DNA of 62,631 nt, counting the filler, from Kipferlia bialata (lineage: Eukaryota), in NCBI GenBank assembly GCA_003568945.1. It is 5 parts of 5 records of this genome, joined end to end, with 100 filler letters (N's around TTAATTAATTAA, not from the genome) between each part and the next. Parts side by side here need not be neighbours in the genome. Positions count along the whole stretch, not along the records: positions 17,551 to 27,543 come from BDIP01000533.1; 4 more parts are not named here. One strand, given 5' to 3'. A program made the translations under genes and the position numbers. This document shows, one piece after another, positions 22,797 through 24,222 of this stretch. The number at the start of each line of letters is the position of its first letter. The first letter of the stretch is position 1. The notes under the pieces are model-generated. The model saw nothing but the letters and a program-made list of their open reading frames with translations. It ran no database searches and had not been told where the DNA came from.

Positions 22797-24182
22797 CACC
22801 CTTATTCTAGGTCTCTCAACCGCATGTACTCTGCTGCCAGTGCATCTGCATCCCACTCTGCAATGAGGAGGAGGGAGGCTCTGCAGGTATAGTATATATA
22901 CTATATATATATATATATGTAGTTATACAGAATATATATGGTATTGTATGTAATTGTATATGCATCTGCATCCCACTCTGCAATGAGGAGGGAGGCACCA
23001 TAGGTACATTTAGATACATTATATAGATAGTGTGTATATATAGCATGTGTATACAGTACACGCATTGGGTTCATGATAGTATATAATAATGAGGAGAAGA
23101 GAGGCACTCCATGTATGGTACACATATCTCTCCTTAAATCTATCTATTATTATGTATGGTCTCACCTCAGATTGACAATGAGCCTGACACCGAGACTGGG
23201 TCTCTCTCTGCCGGTGCATCCTGCCAGTCAATGCTGGCTAGTGCAGCCGCAAGAGCAGGTATATATATATATATAGAAAGAGAGAGTATGCATAGTATAT
23301 ATAGTACGGATAGTATATTGTTTTACTAATGTGTATATATATATATATTATAAATATATGGCTGTGCCTCCTGCCAGTCCATGCTGGCTAGTGCTGCCGC
23401 AAGAGCAGGTATCTCTCTCTCTCTCTCTCTCTCGCTAGGATATATAATAAATATATAATAGTATGTATAGTATGTTGTTTTACTGTATATATATATATAT
23501 ATATATATTATTAATATATTGTTTGTGCCTCCTGCCAGTCCATGCTGGCCTCTGCTGCTGCTAGGGCAGGTATATATAAGATCTATATAGTATATATAGT
23601 ATGAATAGTATATTGTTAATTCAAATATATATGCACTATACTATGTGCCTCCTGTCAGTCCATGCTGGCCAGTGCAGCTGCTAGGGCAGGTACATATAAA
23701 TGATATATAGTATATATAGTATAGTATATATTATATTATATATATATAGTATGTATAGTGGCTGCTGCAAGAGCAGGTAGATAGTATATATAGTATGTAT
23801 ATATTGTATATATTGTTTTACTAATGTGTGTGTATATATATATATATATATATCTATATACGATATGCCTCCTGTCAGTCCATGCTGGCTAGTGCTGCTG
23901 CTAGGGCAGGTATAGAACATATATACTAATTAATATATAGTATAAATAATATATATAGTTATTGTTTTGCTAATGTATATATATATGTATATATATATAT
24001 GGCTGTGCCTCCTGCCAGTCCATGCTGGCCAGTGCTGCTGCTAGGGCAGGTAATATATATATACATGTATATATAGTATGTATAGAATATTGCATATATA
24101 TATAATAATATATATATATGTATATATATAATATGCCGGTACCTCCTGCCAGTCCATGCTGGCCAGTGCAGCTGCTAGGGCA

Positions 24183-24222
<40 letters not shown>

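What the first reader, a model, noticed from the sequence alone, without database searches (positions are those of the whole stretch)
23171..24183. Echoes diverge almost only at synonymous sites, like an archive of former alleles
Seen: five echoes still encode ASCQSMLASAAARA and the sixth has one A>T change. They vary at TGC/TGT, TCA/TCC, GCT/GCC/GCA and AGA/AGG, and one has AGT>TCT (Ser to Ser, ~23551). Neutral decay would hit all codon positions equally. Inference: each echo was functional coding sequence until recently. One model is a break inside an exon repaired by one-sided copying from a divergent allele, running through the splice site into that allele's intron, then rejoined by TA microhomology, leaving the old half-exon behind. 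This explains both the polarity and the silent-site bias, and implies frequent inter-allelic recombination. The alternative is that echoes are still used in splicing.
Basis: partly seen in the sequence, partly recalled or inferred. Interest (0 to 1): 0.92.

Follow-up and report, generated by a model that had tools for sequence, protein, structure and literature searches.

The report
Intron echoes archive former gene alleles
In the single-celled marine flagellate Kipferlia bialata, most introns examined hold tandem copies of half of the neighbouring exon that are left out of the messenger RNA wherever it could be read, yet differ from the working exon mainly at silent positions, so they likely are leftovers of very different working alleles brought in by recombination, which would be a record of sex and very high diversity readable in one genome.

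Summary
The window is Kipferlia bialata. In 8 modelled genes, 66 of 105 introns hold 146 half-exon 'echoes' that span a splice site of the adjacent exon. DNA contigs cross them without mismatch at ordinary depth; the one RNA contig uses only the working exons. Echoes differ from their exon at codon positions 1/2/3 = 63/51/242; dN/dS 0.14 (95% 0.09-0.21), below the ~0.48 that duplication followed by neutral decay gives in simulation (lowest of 800 runs 0.335). Echoes next to the exon have fewer amino-acid changes than distal ones (18 vs 3 families, p=0.001). Best reading (0.6): mirage-type junction duplications whose exon part came from working alleles about 20% divergent at silent sites, through misaligned inter-allelic recombination. 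No second strain was found, so the allelic origin is inferred. The structure is known (amphioxus mirages, human F7); the density and purifying-selection imprint were not found in my searches.

The parts
23171..23258 (+). Working (cognate) exon 15 of the host gene; source of the focal echoes
   Evidence: AG/GT boundaries and ORF continuity; RNA contig matches 23168-23248 with 0 differences
23259..24300 (+). Intron of 1042 nt holding seven donor-side echoes, each followed by a 71-116 nt TA-rich spacer; single branch point and acceptor at its 3' end
   Evidence: removal inferred from RNA contig length (364 nt left after the exon vs 299 nt of remaining exons plus UTR), not seen as a joint
23364..23408 (+). 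Echo 1 (3' half of the exon, intact GT donor); 3 synonymous differences
23525..23569 (+). Echo 2 with AGT>TCT (Ser to Ser) at 23551; intact GT
   Evidence: on one DNA contig with echo 3, 0 differences, depth 343
23645..23689 (+). Echo 3; intact GT
23761..23776 (+).
23866..23909 (+). Echo 5; intact GT
24005..24049 (+). Echo 6; intact GT
24134..24183 (+). Echo 7 (most distal): Ala>Thr change and broken donor (TT)
24301..24387 (+). Next working exon
17790..25854 (+). Host gene (5' end cut by the scaffold edge), 19 modelled exons, 474 aa, no Pfam hit on three C-terminal exons tested; 41 echoes in its introns
18242..18683 (+). Donor-side array of four echoes of exon 18060-18158
24662..25100 (+). 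Acceptor-side array (five acceptor copies with the 5' part of exon 25175-25241) upstream of the working exon
21620..23111 (+). Donor- and acceptor-side echoes in four introns that the RNA contig skips
15916..16304 (+). Four donor-side echoes in a DHHC palmitoyltransferase gene on another scaffold piece
12967..13282 (-). Five donor-side echoes in a membrane-protein gene
34664..44009 (-). PPDK_N / PEP-utilizer gene (KIPB_002964); 21 echoes in 13 of 36 introns; my model is identical to the public protein over 1062 residues

Best explanation
The echoes are tandem copies of an exon half plus its splice site and about 80 nt of intron that are skipped in the mRNA where it was read, and their exon parts were likely taken from working alleles of a very polymorphic population by misaligned recombination between homologous chromosomes. 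Steps: (1, shown) each unit is a collinear duplication across one splice junction; none covers a whole exon, and donor copies always precede acceptor copies, so the working exon keeps its frame. (2, shown in four introns for the main RNA) splicing takes the first donor and the last acceptor although the copies have sites as strong. (3, inferred) a first unit arises rarely by homologous copying ended by end-joining (K. bialata has PolQ and Dmc1, no Ku); whole-exon copies would be purged. (4, inferred) once a unit exists, the half-exon repeat lets alleles misalign, so further units are added or overwritten next to the working exon, reusing the old junction; what is deposited is coding sequence that was under purifying selection in another lineage, about 20% different at silent sites. 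(5, supported) after deposition it decays neutrally, so distal echoes carry more amino-acid changes, stops and broken splice sites.
For: 146 echoes match the adjacent exon against 16 hits in 2192 non-adjacent exon-intron tests and 2 hits for reverse complements. Differences at positions 1/2/3 = 63/51/242; pS 0.249, pN 0.042, dN/dS 0.14, bootstrap over 88 families 0.09-0.21; 0.17 with one echo per family, 0.18 echo-versus-echo; holds without the host gene (50/42/132) and in the gene whose model equals the public protein (8/12/29). Duplicate-then-decay simulated through my own detection filter gives 0.48-0.49, minimum 0.335 in 800 runs. Proximal echoes already have pS 0.22 with pN 0.021; distal pN 0.067; paired test distal > proximal in 18 families, reverse in 3, 16 tied, of 37 (p=0.001), pS not different (15 vs 12, p=0.25). 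The amino-acid changes that exist are close to random by BLOSUM (-0.39 vs -0.66, p=0.056). Seven distinct haplotypes and 6 incompatible site pairs in 44 nt of the focal array indicate recombination or homoplasy. Junctions shared in 65 of 101 pairs. DNA contigs with 0 differences at depth 343-410 cross echo junctions. Repair and sex genes listed for K. bialata: Spo11, four Dmc1, five Rad52, PolQ, Hap2 (PMC8516963 Supplementary Data 2); metamonads lack Ku/DNA-PKcs and fornicates lack Rad51A (same paper, passages).
Against: No second haplotype was seen: the DNA run showed no other letters over 21610-23690 (contigs drop variants), so the sample shows none of the heterozygosity the model needs, although the genome paper infers diploidy from k-mer peaks. 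No other strain was found to test echo variants against. The intron parts of the units are homologous but far more diverged than 25% substitution plus indels would make them (mean score 24-26, unrelated 16-17, simulations 36-66), even beside exon parts that are identical; this needs much faster intron turnover or repeated overwriting of the exon part only, so 'born once and frozen' is too simple. 29 of 146 echoes are identical to the exon, which cis duplication explains as well. The expected decay gradient inside echoes towards the junction is weak. Four-gamete violations were seen in only 2 of 7 multi-copy families.
Confidence: 0.6

Rival explanations
1. Second-order selection within a chromosome: echoes are often promoted into the working exon by collapse or conversion between the direct repeats, so lineages whose echoes carry damaging changes are removed; silent differences build up while arrays turn over.
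For: Direct repeats 100 nt apart invite single-strand annealing; five Rad52 copies are listed; proximal echoes are the least decayed; shared old junctions and highly diverged spacers fit old units with maintained exon parts.
Against: By my rough argument (no call), a collapse rate low enough to let silent divergence reach 0.25 gives selection on echoes only if population diversity is already very high, which is the premise of the allelic model; amino-acid changes present are near random.
Confidence: 0.15
2. Echoes are still translated at times (minor isoforms, another life stage, or an unusual splicing route), which keeps their amino-acid sequence.
For: 76 of 81 donor copies keep GT and 48 of 50 acceptor copies keep AG, with scores like the working sites.
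Against: The RNA contig uses working exons only; echoes lack the partner site (acceptor-like junction 1 of 81, null 7 of 243; donor-like 1 of 50, null 6 of 150), so use would add TA-rich spacer or repeat coding sequence; distal echoes collect stops and broken sites. One RNA contig of one gene only; contigs drop rare forms.
Confidence: 0.08
3. Donors were diverged paralogues or homeologues (hybrid or polyploid ancestry) rather than alleles.
For: Would give low dN/dS at birth just as well; divergence of 0.2-0.5 at silent sites is in the range of sister species.
Against: No second copy laid on the exons at 85% identity; one protein only for the exon searched (a weak search); seven haplotypes in one array need many donors.
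Confidence: 0.09
4. Ordinary mirages: duplication in cis followed by neutral decay, the silent bias coming only from change in the working exon.
For: Explains geometry, polarity and the 29 identical echoes; known from amphioxus.
Against: Predicts dN/dS near 0.5 (0.48-0.49 simulated, minimum 0.335) against 0.14-0.21 observed, and near or above 0.5 between echoes against 0.18.
Confidence: 0.04
5. Assembly artefact: alleles or strains of a mixed sample strung together by a short-read assembler.
For: Short-read assembly, microsatellite-rich introns, unit length near a read length (median 108-113 nt); some arrays border N gaps.
Against: Contigs made by a separate pipeline cross echo junctions with 0 differences at the same depth as exons: 21631-22095 (depth 396) and 23520-23685 (depth 343, echo 2 to echo 3). 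They may come from the same reads, and echoes 1 and 4-7 were not bridged by a listed contig.
Confidence: 0.04

Closest known systems
Amphioxus 'mirages' (Adh3, globins BflGb6/BflGb9, TnC, PGBD5; PMC3087553 passages and abstract; PMC3902484 one passage)
   Same: Tandem duplications spanning an exon-intron boundary, at 5' and 3' boundaries, units up to 150-160 bp, many with intact AG/GT, not disturbing splicing; origin unclear there too.
   Different: Reported at a few loci, with units 81-100% identical and homogenised within a cluster. Here 66 of 105 modelled introns carry them, the intron part is close to unalignable while the exon part keeps its amino-acid sequence (dN/dS 0.14), and decay is polar. 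The passages read report no codon-level analysis; their supplements were not read.
Human F7 intron 7 37-bp VNTR (PMC1557585, abstract and outline only)
   Same: Donor site repeated in tandem; pseudo-sites functional but silent; only the most upstream is used.
   Different: Single locus, short near-identical units, donor side only; no allelic archive.
Tandem duplications from aborted homologous recombination finished by polymerase theta (C. elegans helq-1; PMC8654963 abstract only)
   Same: K. bialata has PolQ and no Ku.
   Different: A repair-mutant signature; here most units reuse an existing junction and junction microhomology could not be shown.
Human autosomal minisatellites mutating by inter-allelic non-reciprocal exchange (PMC2599865 passages; gain at one end of the array is recalled, from no call)
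   Same: Arrays of variant units changed by transfer between alleles.
   Different: Units there are non-coding; here the unit's head is a live exon, so selection stamps each new unit.
Intron gain by tandem duplication of an AG|GT motif (Rogers; Hellsten et al., as cited in bioRxiv 10.1101/051292 passages, and PMC3087553)
   Same: Internal duplication involving splice signals.
   Different: There the duplicate sites make a new intron; here an existing intron is lengthened and the copied sites stay unused.

Membership tests
Mirages (amphioxus type) | Tandem repeat whose unit spans an exon-intron boundary | tested here: met
   81 of 88 donor-side and 50 of 58 acceptor-side echoes reach the splice site; unit period median 113 and 108 nt
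Mirages (amphioxus type) | Both 5' and 3' boundaries can be duplicated | tested here: met
   88 donor-side, 58 acceptor-side; 22 introns with both, 0 interleaved
Mirages (amphioxus type) | Copies keep AG/GT yet normal splicing is undisturbed | tested here: met
   76 of 81 GT, 48 of 50 AG; main RNA contig skips echoes in four introns; focal intron by length only
Mirages (amphioxus type) | Minisatellite-like homogeneity of the whole unit (81-100% identity, concerted evolution) | tested here: not met
   Intron flank identity 0.63 and 0.67 vs 0.60 for unrelated flanks; 4 of 122 at or above 0.85; homologous but highly diverged. Hence: works like a mirage, filed as a variant, not as a plain member
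Mirages (amphioxus type) | Copy-number instability between haplotypes or somatically | not testable with these tools
   One haplotype only; no other strain found
Intron gain by tandem duplication | Duplicated AG|GT sites are used as the new donor and acceptor | tested here: not met
   RNA uses the original outer sites; no splice-site enrichment at junctions; one possible exception noted at 49058-49183, untested
Polymerase-theta tandem duplications | Microhomology or templated insert at a unique junction per event | tested here: inconclusive
   Microsatellite runs not enriched; AT and CA at the exon side mildly raised (22 vs 13.8, 43 vs 28.6 of 81), partly expected from chance extension; parental alleles unknown
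Inter-allelic minisatellite conversion | New units traceable to the other allele | not testable with these tools
   Needs a second haplotype; only indirect support from dN/dS and four-gamete violations

The most novel reading that the evidence does not exclude
Across the K. bialata genome, introns act as a chronological archive of former working alleles: each misaligned exchange between homologues pushes a half-exon of a functional allele into the intron next to the exon, so one genome records population diversity near 0.2 at silent sites and frequent sex in a fornicate, tolerated by a reduced spliceosome that always pairs the outermost splice sites.
Probability: 0.5. Interest if true: 0.88.

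Novelty: new variant of a known kind. Interest (0 to 1): 0.72.

Why it matters
If right, one assembly yields tens of thousands of samples of past alleles (extrapolated from 146 in 105 introns; the genome paper lists 124,912 introns), giving a direct handle on whether and how often free-living relatives of Giardia recombine, a question usually argued from meiotic gene lists alone. It would show a by-product of repair in a lineage that lacks Ku and Rad51A and relies on Dmc1. It is also a natural, genome-wide splice-site competition experiment: up to seven donors stand in one intron and the outermost pair wins, in an organism with 87 of 174 spliceosomal proteins and no snRNA candidates found (PMC6679479 passages). 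Echoes also lengthen introns about threefold (median 331 vs 96 nt), a route to genome growth without transposons.

Tried and rejected
No whole genome was held, so all counts come from this window: 8 hand-guided gene models, 105 introns; the piece 56054-62631, genes at 27.6-34.5 kb, and a few terminal exons were not modelled; 16 hits to non-adjacent exons were dropped before the codon counts. No listed holder was on record as RNA; X2 is a guess as RNA, but its contig joins exons across GT..AG. Other strains: a degenerate codon pattern and the full PPDK-like protein found nothing in metagenome contigs; this is no evidence of absence. Echoes as mini-exons or relics of shifted intron positions: no splice-site enrichment at junctions. 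TA-run junctions: not enriched. Whole-exon duplication followed by loss of one end: no echo covers more than 73% of its exon. Codon-preference selection on echoes: 66 up, 83 down of 153 variants, GC3 81 vs 77, no signal. Gradient of decay within echoes: weak. Pfam on three short host-gene exons: none. Literature: 10 full-text searches showed no listing that describes such repeats in Kipferlia or a synonymous bias in mirages; the library lacks most subscription papers, and in the genome paper only passages on intron, repeat, ploidy and the sequencing section were read. Earlier findings: none in this genome.

Full report
What the window is. The sequence is an intron-rich eukaryote with short GC-rich exons and TA/CT-microsatellite introns. 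One exon (35733-35927, minus strand) matches a public protein at 100%, named 'hypothetical protein KIPB_002964 [Kipferlia bialata]'; that protein's contig length, 17,273, equals the piece 27644-44916, and the window is five such pieces joined by a linker. K. bialata is a free-living fornicate, a relative of Giardia, with 124,912 introns in 51 Mb, inferred diploid from k-mer peaks (PMC5874029, passages and sequencing section).

Observation. I fixed the reading frame without using the echoes: 19 exons from 17790 to 25854 form one ORF, and the offsets of three exons agree exactly with the RNA contig (33 nt each). The working exon 23171-23258 is followed by six long copies of its last 44-50 nt and one 16-nt copy, each with its donor. 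Five long copies encode ASCQSMLASAAARA; the distal one has Ala>Thr and a broken donor; AGT>TCT is at 23551. The array shows 39 synonymous and 3 non-synonymous differences from the exon.

Is it real DNA, and is it in the mRNA? On 21610-23690, contigs of run X1 match with 0 differences at depth 343-410, among them one of 465 nt across a donor echo, acceptor echoes and the working exon, and one across echo 2, its spacer and echo 3; no other letters were listed. Contigs are not reads, may come from the same data as the assembly, and drop rare variants; echoes 1 and 4-7 were not bridged by a listed contig. A 1457-nt contig of run X2 (guessed RNA) joins exons across GT..AG, matches 22004-22095, 22809-22883 and 23168-23248 with 0 differences, stretches holding 7, 7 and 9 sites at which echoes differ, and differs from the echoes at 21620 and 22556 where it had to be laid on them. 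After the focal exon it has 364 nt left, against 299 nt of remaining exons, leaving no room for a 150-nt unit if the contig is complete. So the main transcript uses the first donor and the last acceptor.

How widespread. I modelled 8 genes (105 introns); the model of the largest is identical to the public protein over 1062 residues. Ungapped local alignment of every exon to every intron of its gene gave 88 hits to the upstream exon and 58 to the downstream exon, against 16 in 2192 non-adjacent tests and 2 for reverse complements. 66 of 105 introns have echoes, on all four modelled scaffold pieces (27 of 37, 18 of 20, 13 of 36, 8 of 12). Donor copies never lie behind acceptor copies (0 of 22 introns with both), no echo covers more than 73% of its exon, 76 of 81 donor copies keep GT and 48 of 50 acceptor copies keep AG, with weight-matrix scores like the working sites (8.1 vs 8.9; 9.3 vs 8.6). 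Spacers are nearly a whole intron long (median 77 and 82 nt; echo-free introns 96); only 8 of 131 are under 45 nt, where uniform breakpoints would give half. I have no tested reason for this lower bound.

The silent-site bias. Over 1329 codons, differences fall 63/51/242 on positions 1/2/3; pS 0.249, pN 0.042, dN/dS 0.14 (bootstrap over 88 families 0.09-0.21); counting each variant once gives 0.21 uncorrected; neutral change would make 23% of differences synonymous (maximum 32% in 500 runs) against 64% seen. The bias holds without the focal array, without the host gene, and in the externally validated gene. The right null is not 1 but about 0.5: after a duplication in cis the working copy gains only silent changes and the echo gains all kinds. 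Simulated through my detection filter this gives 0.48-0.49, never below 0.335 in 800 runs; one echo per family gives 0.17 (0.15-0.20) and echo against echo 0.18. Most of the divergence between an echo and its exon therefore arose while both lineages were under purifying selection.

Order. Echoes next to the working exon have pS 0.22 and pN 0.021, the most distal ones pS 0.25 and pN 0.067, with 3 of the 4 stop codons. Paired within 37 families, distal pN is higher in 18 and lower in 3 (p=0.001), while pS does not differ (p=0.25). All 19 proximal donors and 13 proximal acceptors are intact, against 18 of 21 and 9 of 10 distal. This reads as units that are already about 20% divergent at silent sites when they appear or are refreshed next to the exon, and that decay neutrally afterwards. 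The focal array holds 7 distinct haplotypes with 6 incompatible site pairs, another array 3; five other multi-copy families show none.

Mechanism. The geometry needs only collinear duplication plus selection against whole-exon copies. The codon pattern needs donors that were functional elsewhere; alleles are the simplest source (inference). That Dmc1 tolerates mismatches and favours the homologue is recalled, from no call. But junctions are shared within 3 nt in 65 of 101 pairs of one family (18% by chance) and microsatellite runs are not enriched at them, so most units likely come from homologous misalignment on the existing repeat, as in minisatellites that change by inter-allelic exchange (PMC2599865, passages). 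Whether the echo is the displaced resident or the incoming half cannot be read from one haplotype.

Against. No second haplotype or strain was seen, so the allelic origin is inferred, not shown. The intron parts are homologous (p=0.004 and 1e-5) but much more diverged than the silent sites predict (scores 24-26; unrelated 16-17; simulated 36-66), even next to identical exon parts of 35-44 nt. Either these introns turn over several times faster than silent sites, or old units have their exon part overwritten again and again. 29 of 146 echoes are identical to the exon. Second-order selection through repeat collapse remains a live rival (0.15).

Comparison with what is known. A look-up in earlier findings pointed to amphioxus 'mirages', which I then checked in print: tandem duplications of 5' or 3' exon-intron boundaries, units to 160 bp, 81-100% identical, harmless to splicing (PMC3087553; PMC3902484). 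The human F7 intron 7 repeat shows that the first of several functional donors can be chosen (PMC1557585, abstract). The structure and its tolerance are therefore known. The echoes meet three mirage features and fail whole-unit homogeneity, so I call them a variant. Their density in a protist, the purifying-selection imprint on spliced-out sequence and the polar decay did not appear in my ten searches; supplements of the mirage papers and subscription papers were not seen.

Verdict. Real, window-wide and statistically firm; structure of a known kind; the allelic-archive reading is the best supported (0.6) and is directly testable with a second isolate. Interest 0.72.

Noticed in passing
window 17451-17550, 27544-27643, 44917-45016, 55954-56053: The window is five scaffolds joined by an N44-12 nt-N44 linker; echo density follows TA-run content and low GC (TA runs 63-75 nt/kb in the first two pieces, 1 nt/kb in the last, where no near repeats were found).
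   Followed up: partly
window 22562-22591 (+): An echo with both an acceptor-like AG and an intact donor (30 nt, a multiple of three) that the RNA contig still skips; the shortest modelled internal exon is 34 nt.
   Followed up: partly
window 14050 and 13986-14006 (-): The working donor is GC (GC-AG intron in my model) while its echo carries GT.
   Followed up: no
window 49058-49183 (-): An intron in my model whose two ends share a 15-nt direct repeat spanning AG|GT, the signature expected of intron gain by tandem duplication; no RNA check.
   Followed up: no
window 18060-18158 vs echoes 18242-18683 (+): All four echoes read Met where the working exon reads Cys (ATG vs TGT), so the working exon seems the derived or replaced one.
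   Followed up: partly
window-wide: Spacers between repeated splice sites have a floor near 45-50 nt, like the shortest echo-free intron (52 nt); unexplained.
   Followed up: partly
window 34664-44817 (-): 1080-aa protein with PPDK_N and a C-terminal PEP-utilizer domain; this order resembles rifampicin phosphotransferases and prodigiosin-type condensing enzymes (recalled, untested), possibly of bacterial origin.
   Followed up: no
window 28396-29712 (-): ORF with four or five short W-rich repeats resembling helicase-associated (HA) domains (recalled, untested) behind an acidic linker.
   Followed up: no
genome-level idea: Identical echoes double some k-mers and could contribute to the second k-mer peak that was read as diploidy; speculation.
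   Followed up: no
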